Below are positions 1,446 through 56,449 of a stretch of 64,000 bases of DNA, piece after piece (the first letter of the stretch is position 1; each line of letters starts with the position of its first letter). Source of the DNA: the human T2T-CHM13v2.0 reference genome, Homo sapiens. Where the stretch lies: assembly GCF_009914755.1 (NCBI RefSeq), contig NC_060930.1; one strand, given 5' to 3'. The notes under the pieces are model-generated. The model was given only the letters and a program-made list of their open reading frames with translations, was not told where the DNA came from and did not search any database. Position numbers and translations under genes: made by a program.

Positions 1446-2264
1446 ACAGAAGCAAGTTGCTGGAGGCAGGCTTTTGGGACCACAGACTGGGAAGATGATA
1501 TCTTCACCAGTGAAGATTTCCAAGGCCAACATCACATGGCCAAATTGCATCACCCCATGGCCCTGGGCTCTTCTCCCTGTTCACACTAAAACTCAGAAAC
1601 ATTTATTCATGGGGGGAGTAGTCAGCACACTGGTTGCTCAGGTCTGAGAATGCCAGGGCTGAGCTAGCAGGGTTTGCAGGTCCCAAGGCAATTTGCATCT
1701 CCTGTTGGAAGTCTTCCTCATCAAAGCAACGGAAATCAATGCAGTAAATAGTTATAATGAACTGACCTGCTCACACTCCCTGTCTCTTCCTGAGGAAGAG
1801 GAATCATGAGAGACACATTGTTTCCAAATCCTTCACCTCTTTCCCCCTCGCCTGATCCTCCCACAGGGAATCCTCTTTGCTCCTGTCAACAGTGTTTGAG
1901 ATGTTTCAGAGTTTTTATTGGATCTTCATTGTAGCTCTGTCTGTGAGGATTCAGTGAAGCTAAGATTTAAGGGCCAGAGAGAGTTGAAACTTCTACCAAG
2001 CATCAGCCATGGCTGCCCTGCTTTCCAGAGTACTGTCCACGGACCTCTGGGCCTCAGGGACTAGAGAATGTCAGGGGACCATCTCATTTCATACATGTAA
2101 AAACTGAGGCACGGAGAGGGCAGGACCACCCAGCACAGGATCAGCACACCTCTCCAACATCAGTACACCCCACCTTTTCAGGCAGATACAGGAATCTCCT
2201 CCGCAGCAAAGTGTTGATAGGTGGGAAGCAGTGCTGTGATGCCCTTAGCTTTGGCATCCAAATG

Positions 2265-2515
2265 CTTGAGTTTTAATGCCTGACCCACCATTTCCTTGCT
2301 GTACAAGACCTTGAGAAAGCTAATTAACCTCTCAGTAACTGTTTTCTCATATATAAAACAGGGATGAAAATAAAAGTATGTGCTCCATTGAGTTGTTGGA
2401 AGCTTTAATAAACACAGGAAAAAAATTAGAATTGTGTCTACCATGTAGTAAGTATTCAATAAATGTCAGTGACTATGCCCATGATGAATATGGTGAATAT
2501 GATTATGATGATCAT
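2265..2515 (+). mobile_element. MIR with a degenerate (ATG)n-like tail
   Basis: gaccttgagaaagctaattaacctctc...catgtagtaagtattcaataaatg followed by atgatgaatatggtgaatatgattatgatg. Confidence 0.75.
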
Positions 2516-3189
2516 GGGCATTATCCCTGGTGCTAAGAGTCACTTCTACAGGAGTTTAGCTTGCCCTGACCTAGAACATTGAGGCAGGGCATGAACTCAA
2601 TGTTGCACTGAGAACCAGTCTAACACAGGAATGTTTTCTCTGTTTCACAGGTGTCAGTCATGTTCTCTGGATAAATGATAAGATTGAAAGTCCTTGAAGG
2701 CAGGAGACAGCCCCAGATATCGTTTTGTTGTCTGACACAATACCAAGCACAAATGATGTGCCTAAATCCTGGGTCTTTAACCCAAGGCCATCTACATATG
2801 CCCTGGGCCTGCCAGCTCATGAAAACCAGCCTCTGTGGCAGTTGGGGTGCTAAGGAATTGCTCCAGTTGAGCTTCACTGGTTTTTACTCTTGGCTGTCAT
2901 GCTTGGATCTCTTGATTATGTTCCATCAGTTCACCCCCTGCCTCTGGGCTGAAAGATTTGGTGTTCTTTCTAAGTTTTCTTGCATGATTTGTGGCTTAGA
3001 ACGTCTTTCCCGTACATCTCTAGCCCTTTCCATCTCAAATGTTGACTCAGATTATTGGCTCAGGGCAAAGCCACTGGCTCCAGCTCTTAACCCTGTAGAA
3101 TCTCACCTATCCCTGGCACCCAACATAGACATCCACCCCTTCAACTCCACCAAGCTAGGGAGTAGAGAGTAGTTGTCTTTTCCATCCAT

Positions 3190-3632
3190 TCTCTCCCTTC
3201 CCCTCCTTGTCTAATTTCTAAGAGTTAAGAGTGGGCACTTTTCCAACATTTCCGTGGTTACGGGTAACTATGTCACTCAATCCTGGCCACATGAGGTGGG
3301 ACACTAGCCCACTGGAAGAGTTTTCTTCTTAATAGAAGAGAGAAATCTGTAAGAATAATCCCCCACTGTTCCTACCTTGGGTGCTATTATGTGAGGCCTT
3401 GATGCTTGAACCTGTGGCAATGATCTTGCAACATGAGGAAAGGGTCACAAGAATTGCAGAGATACTGACTGGAGCCCTGAGCTGTTAAATAAACCAACTC
3501 CAAACCAATGGGAATGGGGTATGGAACCACCAGTCTCTAGATTTTCTGTGACAAGGAACAATTAAGCTTCCATATTTCTTAAGCCTATTTTAGTCAAGAG
3601 CTCAGTTAGTTGCAGGCAGAAGCATTCCAAAG
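3190..3632 (+). mobile_element. ERVL-type solo LTR (LTR33-like)
   Basis: gatgcttgaacctgtggcaatgatcttgcaacatgagg...ttaagcc...gttagttgcaggcagaagcattcc; related copy at 23740-24175. Confidence 0.6.
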
Positions 3633-3781
3633 TTTTATCAAGTAAGCATCAATTTGCCTATCACAAACTTTATCAAGGTGTTGGTAGATTCTACCTTGTA
3701 GACATAATGTGATCTACTAGGAATCTATGTAGAAAATTCAAGAATCCAAGAATTTGGGAGAAAACTTAAAAGTCGTCCATA

Positions 3782-4249
3782 TCTGACATATAGATCAATG
3801 GAATAAAATGGAGGGTCCAGAAACAAACTCTCATATTTATGGTCAACTGATTCTCAACAAGGGTGCTAAGAAAATTCAATGGGGGAAATAATAGGCTTTT
3901 TGCCAAATAGTGCTAGATAACAGAATATATCCACATGCAAAATATGAATTCAGAACCCTATCACACACCATATAAAAAAATAGCTCAAATGGATCAAATA
4001 TCTAAATGTAAGCACTAAGACTACTAAACTTTAAAAGAGAATGCATGTATAAATCCATGACCTTGGATTAGGCAATGGTTTCTTAGATATGACACCAAAA
4101 GCAATCAAAGAAAAAGACATATAAATTGGACATTAACAAAATTTAAAAATGTTGTGCTTCAAAGAACATCATCAAGAAAATTTAAAAAACCTTGAATACT
4201 GTATATATTTTCTCCAAAAAAGTTACACAAATAGCCAATAAGCTCACAA
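3782..4249 (+). mobile_element. Old L1M (L1MB-like) ORF2 3' fragment
   Basis: gacatatagatcaatggaataaaat...ggtcaactgatt...tttctccaaaaaagttacacaaatagccaataagc matches L1 ORF2 C-terminal consensus. Confidence 0.85.
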
Positions 4250-4384
4250 TGTGCTTCTCTGCTGAGCCCAGAGAGAGCAAGATACTACTACTCAACTAGC
4301 CCTTTAGACAGCCACCACAAACACATACGAACGGGCACATGGGATGAAATGTGTTTACCATTCCCAATCTAGGACAACGGTACC

Positions 4385-4443
4385 CAAAGGAAATGTTGGT
4401 GACTATGCCCATGATGAATGCTTATAAACCAACATTTCCTTTG
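4385..4443. repeat. Perfect 16-bp inverted repeat with a 27-nt loop
   Basis: caaaggaaatgttggt (4385-4400) / accaacatttcctttg (4428-4443). Confidence 0.95.
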
Positions 4444-4619
4444 TTTTGTAAAACATTTGAAGCCATGTCCATGGACACAGAGGAAACCATGACGGCACCA
4501 GAATGTCTATTTCTGTCCTTGAGATGATGCTAAGACTAGGATATCCCTGTGTCTAGGAACTCACTACTATTGTACTGGTGTAGCTCAGTCCATCTTTGAG
4601 GAACAAAAAGAAGTTCTAT

Positions 4620-5778
4620 TTTTTTATTTCAACTTTTATTTCAGATTCAGAGGGTACATGTGCAGGTTTGTTGCAAGGGTATATTGCATGATGCTGAGGT
4701 TTGGGGTACAATTGAACTCATCATCCAGGTAGTGAGTATAGTACCCAATAGGTAGTTTTTCAACCCTTGCCCCTCTCCTTCCATCCCTCTCTTGTAGTCC
4801 CCAGCATCTAGTGTTCCCATCTTTATGCCATGTATACTCAATGTTTAGCTCCCGCTTATAAGTGAGAACACGCAGTATTTGGTTTTCTGATTCTGTATTA
4901 ATTCTCTTAGGATTATGGCATCCAGCTGCATCCATGTTGCTGCAAAGGACATAATCTCATTATTTTTTATGGCTGTATAGTATTCCATGGTACATATGTA
5001 CCACATATTATTTATCCAATCCACTGCTGATGAGCACCTAAGTTGATTCCATGCCTTTCCTATTGTGAATAGTGCTGTGATGAACATACGAGTACAAGTG
5101 TCCTTTTGGTAGAATATTTATTTTCCTTTGGGTATATCCCCAGTAATGATATTGCTAAGTTGAATGATAGCTCTATTTTTAGTTATTTGAGAAATCTCCT
5201 AACAGCTTTCCACAGTGCCTGAACTAATTTACACTCCCACCAACAGTGCAAAAGCATTGCCTATTCTCCGCAACCTCGCCAACATCTGTTGTTTTTTTAC
5301 TTTTTAGTAATAGCCATTCTGACTGATGTGAGATGGTATTTCATAGTGGTTCTTATTTATATTTCTCTGACGATTAGTGATGTGGACCATTTTTTATATG
5401 TTTCTTGGCCACTCGTATGTCTTCTTTTGAAAAGTGTCTGTTCATGTCCTTTACCCACTGTATAATGAAGTTGTTTTTCACTTGTTGATTTGTTTAAGTT
5501 CCTTATAGACCTTTGTCAGGTGCATACCTTGCGAATATTTTTTCCCTTTCTGCAGGTTGTCTGTTTACTCTGTTGATAGTTTCTTTTGTTGTGCAGAAGC
5601 TCTTTAGTTTAATTAAGTCCTACTTGTCAATATTTGTTTTTGTTGCAATTGTTTTTGAGGACTTAGTCATAAATTCTTTGCCAAGGCCAATGTCCAAAAG
5701 GGTATTTCCTAGATTTTTTTCTAGGGTTTTTATAGGTCGAGGTCTCAGATTTAAGTCTTTCATCCATCTTGAGTTAAG
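4620..5778 (-). mobile_element. L1PA15/16-like element, 3' part (host of the nested L1)
   Basis: Poly(T), L1 3' UTR and ORF2 end (MFITALFTIGKAWNQ); resumes at ~12560. Confidence 0.9.
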
Positions 5779-5802
5779 TGATAAGTGCACACAAATTAAG
5801 GT

Positions 5803-8800
5803 TTTTTTAAGTATTTTTAACTTTTTTAAAGTATTTTTTAGGTATTTTTAACCCTTATTTTAGATTCAAGGGTACATGGGCAGGTTTGTTACATAGGTAA
5901 ATTCATATCACAGGAGTTTGTTGTATGGATTATTTTGTCACGCAGGTATTATGCCTCGTACAAAACAGTTTTTTTTTCTGCTCTTCTCCCTCTTCTCTTC
6001 TTCCACTCTCAGGTATGCCCTGATGTCTGTTGTTGCCCTCTTTGTGTCCATGTGCTCTCATCATTTAGCTCCCACTTATACGTGAGAACACGTGGTATTT
6101 GGTTTTCTGTTCCTGAGTTAGTTTGCTAAGGATACTGGCCTCCAGTTCCAACCATGTTCCTGCAAAGGGCATAGTCTCATTATTTTTTATGGCTTTGTAG
6201 TATTCCATGGAGTATTGTACCACATTTTCTTTATCCAATCTACTGTTTAGGTTAATTCCATGTCCTTGCTACTGTGAATAATGCTGTGACAAACATACAC
6301 ATGCAGGTGTCTTTATGGTAGAATAATTTACATTCTTTTGCGTATATACCCAGTAGTGGGATTGCTGGGTTGAATGGCAGTTCTGTTTTTAGCTCTTTGA
6401 GAAATTGCCACACTGCTTTCCACAATGGTTGAACTAATTTACACTCCTACCAACAGTGTGTAAGCGTCCCCTTTTCTCTGCAACCTTGCCAGCATCAGTT
6501 ATTTTTTGACGTTGTAGTAATAGCTATTGTGACTGGTGTGAAATGGTATCTCACTGTGGTTTTGATTTGCAATCCTGTAATGATCAGTGATGTTGAGCTT
6601 TTTTTATATGCTTGTTGGGCACACGTATGTCTTCTTTTGGAAAGTATCTGTTCATGTCCTTTGCCCACTTTTTAATGGGGTTGTTTGTTTTGTTCTTGTA
6701 AATTTGTTTAAGTTCCTTACAAATGCTGGATATTTTTAGGTCTTTGTCAGATGCATAGTTTGCAAATATTGTCTTCTATTCTGTAAGTTTTCTGTTTACT
6801 CTGTTAGTTTATTTTGCTGTGCAGAAGCTATTTAATTAGATCCCATTTGTCAATTTCTGCTTTTGTTGCAATTGCTTTTGGTATCTTCATCATGAAATCA
6901 TTGCCTGTGCCTATGTCCAGCATGGTATTTCCTAGGTTGTCTTCTAGGGGTTTTATAGTTCGGGATTTTACATTTAAGTCTTTGATCCATCTTGAGTTGA
7001 TTTTTGTATATGGTGTAAGGAAGGGGTCCAGTCTCAATCTTCCACATATGGCTAGCCAGTTATCCCAGCACCATTTATTGAGTAGGTTTTCCCTCTTGCT
7101 TGTTTTTGTCAGCTTTGTCAAAGGTGTGCAGCCTTACTTCTGGGCTCTCTACTCTGTTCTATTGGTCTATGTGTCTGTTTTTTACCAGTACCATACTGTT
7201 CTGGTTACTGTAATCCAGTAGTATAGTTTGAAGTCAGGTAATGTGATGCCTCCAGTTTTATTCTTTTTGCTCAGGATTGCTTTGGCTATTCAGGCTCATT
7301 TTGGTTCCATATGAATTTTTAAACAGTTTTTTCTAGTTCTGTGAAGAGTGTAATTGGTAGTTTGATAGAAATAGCATTGAATCTATAAAAATTTCTTCAG
7401 GCAGTATGGCCATTTTTACAATATTGATTCTTTCCACCCGCAAGCATGGAATGTTTTTCCACTTGTTTGTGTCATCTCTGATTTCTTTGAGCAGTGTTTT
7501 GTAATTCTCATTGTAAAGATCTTTTACTTTCCTAGTTAGCTGTATCCATTCTTTAGGTCTTTTATTCTTTTTGTGGAAATTGTGAATAGGATAGCATTCT
7601 TGATTTGGCTCAGGGCCTGGTTGTTGTTGGTGTATAGGAATACTAATTATTTTTATATGAATACATTGATTTTGCATCCTAAAACTTTGCTGGAGTTGTT
7701 TATCAGCTTAAGGAGCTTTGGACTGAGACTATGGGATTTTGTAGATACAGCATCATGTCATCTGCAAACAGAGATAGTTTTACTTCCTCTCTTCCTATCT
7801 GGGTGCTTTTTATTGCTTTATCTTTCCTGATTGCTCTGGCCAGGACTTCCAATAGTACGTTGAATAGGAGTAGTGAAAGAGGGCATACTTTTCTTTTTCT
7901 GCTTCTCATGGGAAATGCTTCCAGCTTTTGCCCATTCAGTAAATGTTGGCCGTGGGTTTGTCATAGATTGTTCTTATTATTTTGAGGTACATTCCTTCAA
8001 TACCTAGTTTGTTGAGAGTTTTTAACATGAAGGGATTTTGAGTTTTATTGAAAGCCTTTTCTGCATCTACTGAGGTGATCATGCGGTTTTTGTCTTTAGT
8101 TCTGTCTATTTGATGAATCATGTTTATTGATTTGTGTATGTTGCACCAACCTTGCATCCCAGGGATGAAGCCTACTTGATCATGGTGGATTAGCTTTTTG
8201 ATGTGCTGCTGGATTTGGTTTGATAGTATTTTGTTAAGGATTTTTGCATCAATGTTCATCAGGGATATTAGCCTCAACTTTTCTATTTTGTTATTGTTGT
8301 GTCTCTGCCAGGTTTTGGTATCAGGATGATGCTGACCTTATAGAATGAATTGGGGAGGAGTCCCTCCTCTTCAATTGTTTTGGAAGAGTTTCAGTAAGAA
8401 TGGTACCAATTCTGGTAGAATTTGGCTGTGAATCCCTCTGGTCCTGGACTTTTTTTATTGGTATGCTATTTATAACTGATTCCATTTGAGAGCTTGTTAT
8501 TGGTCTGTTCAGGGATTCAATTTATTCCTGGTTCAGTCTTGGGAGGGTGTATGTGTCCAGGAATGTATCCATCTCTTCTAGATTTTCCAGTTTGTTTGCA
8601 TAGAGGTGTTCATAGTAGTCTCTGATGGTTCTTTCTATTTCTGTGGGGTCAGTGATAATATCCCCTTTGTCATTTCTAATTGTGTTTATTTGGATCTTCT
8701 CTCTTTTCTTTATCAGTCTAGCTAGCAGTCTATCTATTTTATTATTTTTTTCAAAAAAAACTAACTCCTGGATTAATTGATCTTTTGGATGGATTTTTGT

Positions 8801-11800
8801 GTCTCAATCACTTTCAGTGCAATATGATTTTGGTTATTTCTTGTCTTCTGCTAATTTTGGGGTTGCTTTGCTCTTGCTTCTCTAGTTCTTTTCATTGTGA
8901 TGTTAGGTTGTTAATTTGAGAACTTTCTAACTTTTTGATGTGGGCATTTAACGCTATAAATTTCTCTCTTAACTCTACCTTAGCTGTGTCAAAGAGATTC
9001 TGGTGTGTTGTATCTTTGTTCTTGTTAGCTTCAAAGAACTTTTTATTTCTGCCTTAATTTCATTATTTAACCAAAAGTCACTCAGGATCAGGTTGCTTAA
9101 TTTCCATGTAATTGTATGGTTTTGAGTGATTTTCTTAGTCAAATTCTATTTTTATTGCTCTGTGATCTGAGAGAGTGGTTGGTATGATTTTGGTTCTTTT
9201 GCATTTGCTGAGGATTGTTCTATGTCCAACTGTGTGGTCAATTTTAGAGTACATGATATGTGGTTATGCGAAGAATGTATATTATGTTATTTGAGGGTAG
9301 AGAGTTCTGTAGATGTGTGTCAGGTCCATTTGGTCCACTGTTGAATTCAGGTCCTAAATATCTGTGTTAATTTTCTGCCTCAATGATCTGTCTTATACTG
9401 TCAGTAGGGTATTGAAATTTCCCACTATTATTGTATGTGAGTCTAAGTTTCTTCGTACTTGCTTTATGAATCTGTGTGCTCTTGTGTTAGGTGCTGCATA
9501 TATATTTAGAATAGTTAGGTCTTCTTGTTGAATTGAACCCTTCACCATTATATAATGCCCTTCTTTGTCTTTTTCTTTATTTTTGTTGTTTTAATGTCTG
9601 TTTTGTCTGAAATTAGGATCACAACTCCTGCTTTTTTCAGTTTTACATTTTCTTGGTAGATTTTTCTCTATCCCTTTATTTTGAGCCTATGGGTGTCATT
9701 GCATATGAAATGGATCTCTTGAAGACAAGATATTATTGGGTCTTGCTTCTTTATCCAGCTTGCCACTCTGTGTCTTTTAATTGGAACATTTAGCCCATTT
9801 GCCTTCAAGGTTAGTATTGATATGTGTGGATTTGATCCCGTCATCATGTTGTTAGGTGGTAATTATGTCAACTTGTTTGTGTGGTAGCTTTATGATGTCA
9901 CTGGTCTGTGTACTTGTGTTTTTGTAGCGGCTGGTAATAGTCTTTCCTTTCCATATTTAGTGCTTCTTTCGGGACTCCTTGTAAGGCAGGTCTGGTGGCA
10001 ATGAATTGCCTCAACTTTGCTTGTCTAAAAAGGATTTTACTTCTCTTTCGCTTGTGAAGCTTAGTTTGGCCAGATCTAAAATCCTTGGTTGGAATTTCTT
10101 TTATTTAAGAATGTTGAATATAGGCCCCCAATCTCTTCTGGCTTGTAGGGTTTCTGCTTAGAGGTCCACGTTAGTCTGATGGGCTTCCCTTTGTAAGTGA
10201 CCTGTCCTTTCTCCATAGTTGCCTTTAACATTTTTTTCTTTCATTTCAACCCTGGAGAATCTGACGGTTGTGTCTTGGGGAATTATCTTTTTGTGAAGTT
10301 TTTGCAGGGGCTCTCTGCATTTCCTAAAGTTTAATGTTGGCCTCTCTAGCTATGTTGGGGAAGTTCTCACGGATGATATCCTGAAATATGTTTTCCAAGT
10401 TGCTTCCATTCTCCCCATCCTTTTCAGGGATGCTAATGAGTCACAGATTCAGTCTCTCTACATAGTATCATATTTCTCAGAGGTTTTATTCATTCCTTTT
10501 CATTCTCTCTTCTTTATTCTTGTCTGACTGTCTCATTTCAGAAAGCCAGTCTTCAAGCTCTGAGATTTTTTTCTTAGCCTGGTCTATTCTACTGTTAATA
10601 CTTGGAATAGCATTATGAAATTCTTGTAATACATTTACAATTACCAGCCCTGTCAAGTCAGTTATGTTATTTTCTATACTGGCTATTTTTTCTGTCAGTT
10701 CCTGTATCATTTTATTGTAATTCTTAGCTTCCTTAGGTTGTGTTTCAACATTCTCCTGACTGTTGATGATCTTCATTTCTACCCATATTCTGAATTCTAG
10801 TTCTGTCATTTCAGCCATCTCAGCCCAGTTAAGAACACTTGCTGGAGAACTAATGTGGTTGTTTGGAGGAAAGAAGACACTCTGCGTTTTTGAGTTGTCA
10901 GAGTTCTTGTGCTAGTTCTTTCTCATCTGTGTGGGCTGATGTTCCTTCAGTCTTTGAAGTTGCTGACCTTTGGATTTTTTTTTTCTTTTATCCTATTTGA
11001 TGACCTTAGGGGTTTGATTGTGGCATAAGGTGGATTCAGTCAACTGGCTTCATTTCTAAAAGATTTTAGGGAGCCAAGTCTCAGCTCAGGACTCCTGGGC
11101 CACATTCTCTAACTCTGGGAGACTGGTATTGAGCCCCAGCTTTGTTCCCTGACTCCTCGAGGTTAGGAACCTGATGCACTGGGGGGGCCAAGATGCTGCT
11201 GGACCACTGGTCACAGTGCTCTGGTGGATGGTGCCAGCCAAAGCACTTCACAGGGCAGTGGTAGTGAGCTCTGTCCTCATTTGCACATGCCAGTAGCAGT
11301 GCAGTGGCAGTGCAGCAGGGTGCATGCTCAGCTGCAGCAGGGTGTTAGTGGGTACTGGGGTGCTGGCCTCTGTGCAAGTGTTCACAGCAGCAGCAGTGGC
11401 AGCACAGCTTGGGGTGGGCCCCACTGGACACTGGGCAACTGTGCATGCATTAACACCAATGGTGGTGTTAGCATGGAGACAGGGTGCTAGTGGGGGCAGG
11501 ACTGTGTGTACCCTTGTGCACGTACATGAGGGCAGCAGTGGCTACCCAGGGTGGGGACGGGTCCACTGTTTCAGCTGGGGTCAGGCATTGGCAGGCAAGG
11601 CTAGCAGGCTTCATGCCTACTAATACTCTGACAACAATGGCAGTTGGGGGGGCAGTGCACTCAAGTCAGCAGCAGTGGCATGTCAGGGTGCCTGCACACA
11701 CATATCCTTGTGGAGAAGGAAAGGCAAAGTCCACCTGCACAAGGTCCACATGTGCTGGCAAAGTGATGTGGGGAGACCCTGGGTGAGTATATACAGGCAA

Positions 11801-12552
11801 AGTGGCACAGGGGAGGCTACAGTAGGGGAAGAGCAGGGGTGGAGTTAGTGTGTGTCCACGGGTGGCTCTGCTGGAGCACTCTGCCGGTCAGGTACAGCCT
11901 GCCAGCCCTGAAGCTATGATGCAGGCCAAGGCAGTACCTGAGGGCTGCACTGCAAGCAGTTGTGGCCAGGCTGGGGCCTCAGGAGAGGCCATCAGACTAA
12001 GGGGTGCTCAGATCAGACTAGTCCTGTCTCATGGGCAAGACCACCCTGCAGTTCCAGTCTAACAGTTCCCCTAGGGCTATAGTCTCTTATGGCAGCAAGT
12101 TGAGCCTAAGAGGATGGGCATCCCTGGCCATGCTTCACTACAGATGCCCCTACACCAAACCCTCTGGGCTCCACACTACCTGGAGTTCTTCCCCATCTCT
12201 TCTCTAAGCAGCAATTCCTGCCAATTCAAGTGTCCATGGTAGTCGAGTGGTCACCTCCTGGTGGAATTCCAGAGGCCCAAGGTTAGAGCAGGTTGCTCCT
12301 TGCCTGTTGAACTCACCCCTTCATGCAGGCATCATTGAGGGGCAGGAACGAGTCCCAGTGTGCAGAAGCCCCTTGCAGGGTTCCCAGCTTCCTCCTGCTT
12401 CAGCCCAGCCTCTGTGTCTTCCTTATATTCACCCTGAATGCCTTCCCTCTGAAGACATGCTAGGAGTGCACCAGTCTTCCTGATATCCCAGTCTCTCGGT
12501 GAGAGATGTTCCTCCTGGCTGTGTCTAGTCAGCAGCCATCTTGGAGCTAGTC
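5803..12552 (-). mobile_element. Near full-length L1PA13-like LINE-1 (5' UTR, ORF1, ORF2, 3' UTR; inactivated)
   Basis: 5' end gccatcttgg at ~12540; long GC-rich 5' UTR; ORF1 ATG at ~10926; ORF2 start MTGSNPHISILTL at 9844; RT fragments ([25 protein letters not shown]); many stops and frameshifts. Confidence 0.92.
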
Positions 12553-12559
12553 CTCTGAG

Positions 12560-13466
12560 CTCAGTTTCATTCTTCTGCATATGGATAGTCAGTTACTCCA
12601 GCACCATTTATTGAATACGGACTTTCTCCATTGCTTATTTTTGTCAACTTTGTCAAAGATCAGTTGGTTGTAGCTATGCAGCTTTATTTCTGGGTTTTCT
12701 ATTCTGTTCCATTGGTCTATGTGTCTGTTTTTGTACCAGTACCATGCTGTTTTGGTCACTGTAGCCTTGTAGTATAGTTTGAAGTCAGGTAATGTGATGC
12801 CTCTGGCTTTGTTCTTTTTGCTTAGGATTGCTTTGGATATTTGGGCTCTTTTTTTTTTTGGTTCCATAAGGATTTTAGAAGTTTTTTCTAATTCCGTGAA
12901 AAATGACATTGGTAGTTTGATCAGAATAGCATTGAATCTGAAGATTGTTTTGGCAGTATGGACTTTTTAAAGAATTGATTCTTCCAATTCATGAGTATGG
13001 AATGTTTTTCCATTTGTTTGTGTCATCTATGATTTCTTTCAGAAGTGTTTTGTAGTTTTTCTTGTAGAGATGTTTCACTTCCTTGGTTAGATGTATTCCT
13101 AGGTATTTGTGTGTGTGTGTGTGGCGATTGTAAATGAGATTAGGTTCTTGATTTAACGCTCAGCTTGAACATTATTGGTGTATAGAAATGCTGGTGATTT
13201 TTGTACATTGATTTTGTATCCTGAAACTTTACTGAAGTCATTTATCAGTTCCAGGAGCCTTTTGGCAGAGTCTTTAGGGTTTTCTAGGTATAGAAACATA
13301 TCATCAGTGAAGAGAAATAATTCGTCTTCCTCTTTTCCTATTTGGATGCCTTTTATCTTTTCTCTTGCCAGATTGCTCTGGCTAGGACTTCCAGTACTAT
13401 GTTGAATAGGAGTGGTGAGAGTGGGCATCCTTGTCTTATTCTAGTTCTTGAGGGGAATGCTTCCAG
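12560..13466 (-). mobile_element. L1PA15/16-like element, 5'-truncated remainder
   Basis: Continues ORF2 just beyond where 4620-5778 stops ([21 protein letters not shown]); aagttctattt repeated at ~4611 and ~13471 as the TSD. Confidence 0.88.
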
Positions 13467-13479
13467 GAAAAAGTTCTAT

Positions 13480-14582
<1,103 letters not shown>

Positions 14583-39366: not shown

Positions 39367-39729
<363 letters not shown>

Positions 39730-53473: not shown

Positions 53474-53852
53474 ATCTTGATTTAGTCCGTTCAGACTGCC
53501 ATAAAGAATACCAAAGACTGGGTGGCTCAAACAGCAAACATTTGGTTCTCACAGTTCTGGAGGATGGGAAGTCCAAGATCAAGGTTCTGACAGATATGGT
53601 GGCTGGTGAGGGCCCTTTTCCTGGTTCTCAGACCACCATCTTCTCATTGTATGCTCATGTGGTAAGAAGCAGAGAGAAAAGAAGCAAGTTCTCCTGTGTC
53701 TCTTCTTATAAGGGCACTAATGCCATTCATGAAGGCTCCACCTTCATGACCTAATTACCTCCCAAAGGCCCCACTTCTGAATAGCATCTTATTGAGGGTT
53801 AGGATTTTAACAAATGAATTTTGGGGGCACACAAACATTCAATCCATAGCAC
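53474..53852 (-). mobile_element. MLT1A-like LTR
   Basis: ttagtccgttcagactgccataa...acattcaatccatagca. Confidence 0.85.
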
Positions 53853-56152: not shown

Positions 56153-56449
56153 ATCAAGGTTCTGACAGATATGGTGTCTAGTGAGGGCCCTCTTCCTGGT
56201 TCTCAGACCACCATCTTCTCATTGTGTGCGCCCATGTGATAAAAAGCAGACAGAAAGGAAGCAAGCTCTCCTGTGTCTCTTCTTATAAGGGTGCTAATGC
56301 CATTCATGAGGGCTCCACCTTCATGACCTAATTACCTCCTAAAGGCCCCACTTCCTAATACCATCTTATTGAGGGTTAGGATTTTAACATATGAATTTTA
56401 GGGGCATAGAAACATTCAATCCATAGTACATCCTCAGTCTACTCTGCTG
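56153..56449 (-). repeat. Local duplicate of 53578-53870 (partial MLT1A plus flank)
   Basis: Direct alignment by eye, roughly 90% identical, running beyond the LTR end. Confidence 0.85.

What the first reader, a model, noticed from the sequence alone, without database searches (positions are those of the whole stretch)
4250..4606. ~355-bp anomalous block interrupting an old L1, with an abrupt change in divergence and retained CpGs
Seen: the well-preserved L1M stops at ...gccaataagctcacaa (4249). The matching L1 continuation (aaagaagttctatttcacaagcaatcaaagaaatg) appears at 4607-4620 and 13480 onward once the younger L1s are removed. acaa flanks both sides (4246-4249, 4603-4606). The block holds four CpGs, the 16-bp hairpin, a bulged hairpin at 4252-4279 and the palindrome tgtccatggaca (4466-4477). 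It has only faint colinear echoes of an L1 3' end (tacccaaaggaaatg, atgtccat, atgctaag) and of 2420-2585 (tgtgt.taccat, tatccctg, tcact.cta, tagct, ttgagg). Inference: a patchwork insertion rather than an ordinary transposon; no TIRs, LTR TSD or poly(A).
Basis: partly seen in the sequence, partly recalled or inferred. Interest (0 to 1): 0.7.

Follow-up and report, generated by a model that had tools for sequence, protein, structure and literature searches.

The report
Repair scar joining two old LINEs
A unique 357-base stretch of human chromosome 6 sits exactly where remnants of two different old LINE-1 retrotransposons meet, and its middle holds an exact copy of DNA from 1.9 kb away plus a short mirror copy of itself, so it is likely a scar left by DNA-break repair, a known kind of event with no sign of function.

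Summary
The block (4250-4606) is real and single-copy. Two features exceed chance. One is a 21-nt exact copy of 2469-2489 (27/29 when extended), found at only two places in the genome; the finding does not mention it. The other is a perfect 16-bp fold-back (4385-4400/4428-4443) around it. The four CpGs, small hairpins, palindrome and 'colinear echoes' are at chance level.

The flanks rejoin in exact L1 register but are not one element. The left side matches one L1 group (82-84%); the right side matches an older group (about 68%). None of 37 control copies shows this switch.

Best reading (0.45): filler made by template-switching break repair at a junction that likely fused two L1 copies and deleted what lay between. 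The templated core is well supported (about 0.9). About 295 nt have no traceable template. Main rival (0.25): only the core is a later templated insertion into older unique DNA, with the register a coincidence.

No TIR, LTR, poly(A), Pfam or Rfam evidence was found. Primate orthologues, which I could not fetch, would decide it. It is a known kind of event of modest interest.

The parts
2461..2489 (+). Likely donor of the templated copy (21 nt exact at 2469-2489; 27/29 over 2461-2489), at the 3' end of a MIR-like element running into an ATG-rich tract (the MIR label is recalled, from no call)
2466..2530 (.). Hairpin at the donor site; perfect 11-bp arms 2475-2485/2511-2521; the donor 21-mer forms its 5' arm
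   Evidence: RNA fold z -3.2, 1 of 200 shuffles
3785..4189 (+). Left L1 remnant, piece A (group Y); 84% to the majority of its relatives, which themselves average 85%
4190..4249 (+). Left L1 remnant, piece B, after an internal gap of about 115-130 nt; types as group Y (9 Y-like : 2 X-like diagnostic sites); ends without 3' end or poly(A)
4246..4249 (+). ACAA, repeated at 4603-4606: 4-nt junction ambiguity (microhomology or short duplication)
4250..4380 (.). Left outer part of the block; no traceable template
4381..4393 (-). 13-nt exact match to the reverse complement of 5122-5134 in the neighbouring younger L1; possible further template, weak
   Evidence: a match this long within 1 kb arises in 2.5% and within 2.5 kb in 7.7% of 2000 shuffles
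4385..4400 (+). Left arm of the perfect 16-bp inverted repeat
4391..4419 (+). Templated copy of 2461-2489, same orientation, 1930 nt away (21 nt exact at 4399-4419; two adjacent mismatches, TG against CA, in the 5' extension)
4428..4443 (-). Right arm: fold-back copy of 4385-4400, 27-nt loop
4444..4606 (.). Right outer part of the block; no traceable template
4607..4621 (+). First bases of the right L1 remnant, including the left copy of the younger L1's target-site duplication (4611-4621)
4622..13470 (-). Younger minus-strand L1 sequence inserted 4 nt right of the block; reads as one L1 nested in another (read from the sequence, not analysed in detail)
13481..13800 (+). Right L1 remnant, piece C (older group X); about 68% to the X majority; 17 X-like : 6 Y-like diagnostic sites over 13507-13620

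Best explanation
The block is a single-copy stretch that sits at an in-register switch between two different old L1 remnants and whose core carries a copy of DNA from 1.9 kb upstream and a fold-back copy of itself; it is likely filler made during one template-switching break-repair event that would have fused the two L1s and deleted what lay between them. Shown: single copy, 21/29-nt local copy, 16-bp fold-back, exact register, change of L1 group and of divergence. Inferred: a free 3' end primed on the hairpin-forming site at 2461-2489 through a few matching bases, copied up to 29 nt, released, folded back on its own product for 16 nt, and was joined to the right-hand L1 at the ACAA microhomology (polymerase-theta end joining or MMBIR; sequence cannot tell these apart). 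Inferred and weaker: the outer ~295 nt are either copied from the interval lost in the same event or are very-short-patch or untemplated synthesis; the register was kept because the two related L1s were paired when the break was processed. The core is inferred to be much younger than the left L1 (primate-era). No function is proposed.
For: The 21-mer occurs at exactly 2 places in 3.1 Gb with up to 1 mismatch, 1930 nt apart; about 1e-5 expected by chance in the window (arithmetic). The 16-bp repeat is the longest non-microsatellite one in 124 kb and overlaps the templated copy. Anchor spacing across the skipped block is 44 nt, the modal value in L1 copies (10 of 27 anchor matches; 4 more at 43). 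Left piece B scores +24.5 (Y-like), right piece C -44 (X-like); 0 of 37 alignable control copies show this pattern. Diagnostic sites 9:2 against 6:17, Fisher p=0.003. Core pair mismatch is 2 of 45 (95% upper bound 13%), P about 2e-5 at the ~30% expected for copies as old as the left L1. Dinucleotide profile is closer to 'random plus CpG decay' than 94-96% of tiles. Precedents, passages read: local templates within 10 kb in 53% of complex human deletion junctions and retained spacers up to ~204 bp (PMC4617611); complex germline templated insertions with microhomeology (PMC8421209); filler copied from inside the deleted interval at NCLI48 (PMC1920257); homeology-influenced NHEJ between 15-30% diverged Alus (PMC4356517); mixed random, snap-back and in-trans synthesis by Pol theta (PMC4912351).
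Against: About 295 of 357 nt have no template and no excess of local k-mers. Higher-order composition is ordinary (20th-55th percentile of 148 tiles). The genome DNA search is blind to old repeats: piece C, a real L1 remnant, also finds only itself. In human polymorphisms, homology-driven L1-L1 rearrangements join copies of median 93.5% similarity (PMC9675761, passage), far above the roughly 65-75% here, and homeology-influenced NHEJ is described as joining near, not exactly in, register. Group X was collected with a motif taken from piece C, and I dropped 6 of 29 X loci as younger-looking before building its majority. The distal part of C (13621-13760) does not discriminate by site count (20 Y: 16 X: 18 neither; 67% against 65%), though it hits only the X profile. 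Piece B is only 45 nt. No outgroup was seen, so no deletion was observed.
Confidence: 0.45

Rival explanations
1. The outer ~295 nt are old unique DNA lying between two unrelated L1 fragments. Only the ~45-63-nt core is a later, small templated insertion (local copy plus fold-back). The L1 register and the ACAA repeat are coincidences.
For: Only the core shows templating. Outer parts have ordinary higher-order composition and CpG level. Two L1 groups need no joint history. The genome search cannot see old repeats.
Against: Needs exact register (44 = modal 44), which I estimate by hand at a few in a thousand, a 4-nt repeat at both ends (a few per cent), a separate loss of the left L1's 3' end, and the templated core landing in the same 357 nt.
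Confidence: 0.25
2. Two events. An earlier recombination or gene conversion made an in-register Y|X chimeric L1, and the block later entered as pure filler without deletion; or the block entered first and stopped a later exchange at its edge.
For: Explains exact register and the 4-nt duplication directly. In-register chimeras are the known product of repeat-repeat recombination (PMC4356517, PMC9675761, passages).
Against: The switch lies within about 15-22 nt of empty-site sequence around the block, so two rare events must coincide unless one positioned the other. The two L1s are very diverged for recombination.
Confidence: 0.17
3. The block is a fragment of an unrecognised low-copy or very old transposon, or non-L1 'extra nucleotides' that came in with the left, 3'-truncated L1 in an endonuclease-independent insertion.
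For: The left L1 has no 3' end or poly(A) next to the block. Such insertions carry 4-312 bp of non-L1 DNA in 15 of 21 cases (PMC1920257, section 11 read). The block starts TG and has CA near its end. Dfam could not be run.
Against: Two 24-mers from the outer parts have no other genomic match at 3 mismatches (reversed controls 0 and 3). No terminal inverted or direct repeats. The core is too intact to be as old as the left L1. Register is unexplained.
Confidence: 0.1
4. Assembly or consensus artefact of the reference.
For: Fold-back plus local copy can arise in library or consensus errors. Read support could not be checked.
Against: The outer 295 nt are not copies of anything nearby. The copy carries two mismatches of the CpG-decay type. 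The assembly is a finished one per the hub's annotation.
Confidence: 0.03

Closest known systems
Complex deletion junctions of the 1000 Genomes SV map ('Ins with Dup and Del', 'Ins with MultiDup and Del', 'MultiDel'; PMC4617611, passages read)
   Same: Inserted DNA at a junction with a local template of 10 bp or more within 10 kb, and microhomology at the template edge.
   Different: The deletion is inferred here, not seen; the untraceable part (~295 nt) is longer than the ~204-bp spacers quoted; flanks are in L1 register.
Complex MMBIR-type templated insertions (MMB-TI) found as human germline variants (PMC8421209, abstract and part 1 of 2 of section 10 read)
   Same: Several template switches, one forward and one reverse copy, microhomeology at the priming site.
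   Different: Most of this block has no template; whether it is polymorphic is unknown.
Polymerase-theta filler (PMC4912351, passages) and yeast fold-back inversions at breaks (PMC11724301, passages)
   Same: Mix of snap-back copy, copy in trans and untraceable bases; fold-back of 16 bp with a 27-nt loop (yeast: mostly under 14 bp, up to ~150 bp; 41-nt loop).
   Different: 357 nt is far above the 7-bp median quoted for reconstituted end joining; a template 1.9 kb away needs long resection or a replication setting.
Homeology-influenced NHEJ and in-register repeat-repeat deletions (PMC4356517; PMC9675761; passages)
   Same: Two diverged copies of one repeat class meet at homologous positions.
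   Different: Described for Alus of 15-30% divergence; homology-driven L1 cases are ~93.5% alike; no long filler at the junction in the passages read.
Non-classical (endonuclease-independent) L1 insertion and class 2 TSIP (PMC1920257; PMC5110952)
   Same: 3'-truncated L1 without poly(A) beside non-L1 DNA; no long target-site duplication.
   Different: No distant donor found; the left L1 is ~16-18% diverged while the core is nearly intact.

Membership tests
Complex templated junction insertion (TMEJ/MMBIR type) | Segment of 10 nt or more copied from a template within 10 kb | tested here: met
   21 nt exact, 27/29 extended, 1930 nt away; two places in the genome
Complex templated junction insertion (TMEJ/MMBIR type) | Fold-back (inverted) copy of adjacent sequence | tested here: met
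   16-bp perfect arms, 27-nt loop; above all 300 shuffles
Complex templated junction insertion (TMEJ/MMBIR type) | Microhomology at switch points and outer junctions | tested here: inconclusive
   ACAA at both outer ends; 8-of-10 match at the entry to the donor may be priming microhomeology or part of the copy with later CpG decay
Complex templated junction insertion (TMEJ/MMBIR type) | Whole insert traceable to templates | tested here: not met
   ~295 of 357 nt untraceable in 124 kb and genome-wide; the class includes partly untraceable inserts (PMC4617611: 53% had a local template)
Complex templated junction insertion (TMEJ/MMBIR type) | Ancestral allele without the insert, with or without a longer interval | not testable with these tools
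   no other primate or human haplotype is held
In-register L1-L1 recombination junction | Breakpoints at homologous L1 positions | tested here: met
   anchor spacing 44, modal in copies; profile positions 496 and 498
In-register L1-L1 recombination junction | Two distinct parent elements | tested here: met
   caveats: X set picked with a motif from C, B is short, distal C uninformative by site count
In-register L1-L1 recombination junction | Clean chimera with homology at the junction and no insert | tested here: not met
   357 nt intervene
DNA transposon / MITE | Terminal inverted repeats and further copies | tested here: not met
   no terminal arms among the repeats listed; single copy
Solo LTR | TG...CA ends flanked by a 4-6 bp duplication, many copies | tested here: not met
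   with TG at 4250 and CA at 4604-4605 the flanks are CACAA and AAAAG; with ACAA as the duplication the insert ends in GGA; single copy
TPRT product (class 1 TSIP, processed transcript) | Poly(A) tail and target-site duplication of 5 nt or more | tested here: not met
   4-nt repeat only, no tail (criteria from PMC5110952 passages)
Class 2 TSIP / NUMT / captured foreign DNA | Identifiable distant donor | tested here: inconclusive
   none in the 24 nuclear contigs, phages or viral contigs (11 of 11 hits to one 19-mer do not extend); mitochondrial DNA was not among the contigs searched
Known repeat family (Dfam/Repbase) | Match to a curated repeat model | not testable with these tools
   no such library; four own L1 profiles give no hit
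Structured RNA / pre-miRNA | Rfam match or long (about 30-bp) stem | tested here: not met
   no Rfam match in the block at E<=1; no tRNA; stem is 16 bp (the stem-length criterion is recalled)

The most novel reading that the evidence does not exclude
A single germline event paired two L1 copies only about 65-75% alike in exact register, deleted the DNA between them, and left a 357-nt, largely untemplated or very-short-patch filler at the crossover: a fossil of homeology-guided repair at a divergence and with a filler length beyond what the papers I read report, and a signature (family switch plus exact register plus orphan insert) that could be counted genome-wide.
Probability: 0.2. Interest if true: 0.55.

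Novelty: new member of a known kind. Interest (0 to 1): 0.3.

Why it matters
Templated junction filler is a well-described product of break repair, so one more instance changes little, and nothing points to function: the block lies in an intron of the lncRNA LOC101929555 with no listed functional element (hub annotation). The point of interest is the combination of exact L1 register with a change of L1 group. If outgroups confirm one event, it shows that very diverged LINEs can steer a deletion and that repair can leave hundreds of bases of orphan sequence in the germline, a small source of new unique DNA that repeat annotation would read as one interrupted L1.

Tried and rejected
Whole-block patchwork of local templates: rejected for the outer parts. 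Coverage by 9- and 10-mers from 0.5-4 kb flanks matches shuffles in most settings (some 8-mer and pre-L1-flank rows reach p 0.02-0.04), and against real distal tiles p is 0.06-0.98. Extra core matches (11-mer at 3243-3253, 10-mer at 3489-3498, 13-mer at 5122-5134) beat the control tiles, but the core limits were chosen after seeing them and the 11-mer counts twice, so they are leads only.

Colinear homology with 2420-2585: nothing beyond the 29-mer. Block as decayed L1 3' end: no hit to four profiles. Hairpin or repeat richness: chance level; whole-block DNA fold z -1.8, 5 of 100 shuffles. CpG retention: ordinary.

Coding: 7 of 18 stop-to-stop frames scanned, 0 Pfam hits. RNA families: one weak match (E 0.74) at 2471-2541, none in the block. 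Phage and viral origin: none. Templates in 60 kb upstream: best exact matches 12-14 nt, as expected by chance. Two gapped patterns for the older L1 group were too strict (3 and 1 hits). The TSD check printed False through an off-by-one slice; corrected.

Full report
WHAT IS THERE. The 357-nt block at 4250-4606 is present once in the window's genome at 100% identity. Its halves find only themselves at E<=10. Two 24-mers from the outer parts have no other match at 3 mismatches. This does not exclude a very old repeat: the recognisable L1 remnant at 13481-13800 also finds only itself.

WHAT EXCEEDS CHANCE. First, 4399-4419 is identical to 2469-2489. With up to one mismatch this 21-mer occurs at exactly two places in 3.1 Gb. 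The match extends to 27 of 29 nt (4391-4419 against 2461-2489); the two mismatches are adjacent, TG against CA, the pattern left if a CpG decayed on opposite strands (inference). Among 30 exact direct matches of 20 nt or more within 5 kb in the window, the other 29 are simple repeats or pairs of interspersed repeats (family labels recalled). The donor is the 5' arm of a hairpin of its own (z -3.2). It fits its context at the end of a MIR-like element (label recalled), so I take 2461-2489 as donor and the block as copy. Second, 4385-4400 and 4428-4443 are perfect 16-bp inverted arms around a 27-nt loop that holds most of that copy. This is the longest inverted repeat in the window; the best of 300 shuffles reached 14, and the only longer one in 124 kb is a microsatellite.

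WHAT DOES NOT. Four CpGs are ordinary (42 of 179 tiles have as many). Short hairpins, the palindrome and direct repeats are at shuffle and background level. The echoes of 2420-2585 vanish when the 21-mer is masked. The block has no hit to L1 profiles, Pfam (7 of 18 frames scanned), Rfam, tRNA or phages; 11 of 11 viral-contig hits to a 19-mer do not extend. Outside the core 4381-4443 there is no consistent excess of local templates, against shuffles or against distal tiles, and none in 60 kb upstream. Composition is mixed evidence: dinucleotides look more like random sequence with CpG decay than 94-96% of tiles (I fitted the decay fraction to the block), while order 3-5 Markov scores are ordinary.

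THE FLANKS. Skipping the block and the younger minus-strand L1 (target-site duplication 11/11 at 4611-4621 and 13471-13481), the spacing between two L1 anchors is 44 nt. That is the modal spacing in genomic copies (10 of 27 anchor matches in 31 sequences; 4 more at 43; the rest scattered), and a profile places the two ends at positions 496 and 498. The register is therefore exact, with ACAA at both ends. The flanks are nevertheless not one element. I built group Y from 29 relatives of the left piece and group X from 29 loci carrying a motif of the right piece (own locus and two duplicates left out, and 6 younger-looking loci dropped, leaving 23 for the majority). Piece A is 84% to Y, like Y members (85%); piece B is 82% to Y and 70% to X; the first part of C is 68% to X and 65% to Y. 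At sites where the groups differ, B is 9 Y: 2 X, and C outside the selection motif is 6 Y: 17 X (Fisher p=0.003). B hits only the Y profile and distal C only the X profile. Of 48 control copies scored, 37 were alignable on both sides; none was Y-like on the left and X-like on the right, and 3 showed the opposite signs. Against this: distal C is uninformative by site count (20:16:18), B is 45 nt, and X is a loose set. From recall, Y resembles L1M4/L1MB and X L1ME; no call names them.

AGE. The core pairs differ at 2 of 45 positions (95% upper bound 13%). Copies as old as the left L1 should differ at about 30% (P about 2e-5). The core is therefore likely much younger than that L1. Tract ends are defined by matching, which biases this somewhat, and a hairpin can be homogenised.

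MECHANISM. A local copy primed at a short, imperfect match, followed by a fold-back, is the recognised signature of template-switching repair. I read passages or sections showing local templates within 10 kb at 53% of complex human deletion junctions, and retained spacers up to ~204 bp (PMC4617611); complex germline templated insertions with microhomeology (PMC8421209); mixed random, snap-back and in-trans synthesis by polymerase theta (PMC4912351); and fold-back inversions in yeast (PMC11724301). I put about 0.9 on the core being such a product. How far the event extends is less sure. One event that fused two L1s explains the family switch, the lost 3' end of the left L1 and the orphan outer parts, which could be copied from the deleted interval, as at NCLI48 (PMC1920257). 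It needs the L1s to have been paired in register. That has precedent for 15-30% diverged Alus (PMC4356517) but is atypical for L1, where homology-driven events join copies of median 93.5% similarity (PMC9675761). I give it 0.45. The rivals are a small core insertion into old unique DNA with coincidental register (0.25), two events (0.17), an unrecognised element or endonuclease-independent L1 filler (0.10) and artefact (0.03).

COMPARISON AND NOVELTY. It works like a complex templated junction insert. It meets the local-template and fold-back tests, is inconclusive on microhomology, is not wholly traceable, and could not be tested for an ancestral allele. It fails the tests for DNA transposon, solo LTR and TPRT product; class 2 TSIP (PMC5110952, passages) lacks a donor. 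Nine literature searches showed no paper on this locus: 4 papers name the host lncRNA (listing only), and the 10 of 15 listed and passages of PMC13174262 and PMC12350158 described no in-register L1 chimera with a long insert. The library lacks most subscription papers, and I opened no supplements; structural-variant tables there could list this site. Verdict: a new member of a known kind, with one unusual combination that outgroup sequence can test cheaply. Interest 0.3.

Noticed in passing
window 2466-2530: The donor site is itself a long imperfect hairpin (perfect 11-bp arms, RNA fold z -3.2); the only Rfam match in 2200-4800 lies here and is weak (snoR28, E 0.74). It may have been an exposed single-stranded template or an older fold-back.
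   Followed up: partly
window 4189-4205: The left L1 has an internal gap of about 115-130 nt relative to its relatives, 45-60 nt before the block.
   Followed up: partly
window 4245-4621: Three events fall within about 25 nt of empty-site sequence: the L1 group switch, the block, and the target site of the younger minus-strand L1.
   Followed up: partly
window 3707-3749: A possible further L1 fragment about 580 profile positions upstream of piece A; not significant (E 0.88).
   Followed up: partly
window 53578-53812 and 56153-56389: Two copies of a repeat about 2575 nt apart share five exact stretches of 24-33 nt, unusually alike for neighbours; family not determined.
   Followed up: no
window 39537-39600: 33-nt tandem duplication inside an Alu-like sequence (copies at 39537 and 39568).
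   Followed up: no
L084 9176-9360: Compound microsatellite (TG, TA, CA runs) forming a 34-nt perfect palindrome, followed by an AT-rich low-complexity tract, about 5 kb left of the block.
   Followed up: yes
window 13869-13975: Short tandem duplications with imperfect units of about 25-30 nt inside an L1 3' end; read, not tested.
   Followed up: no
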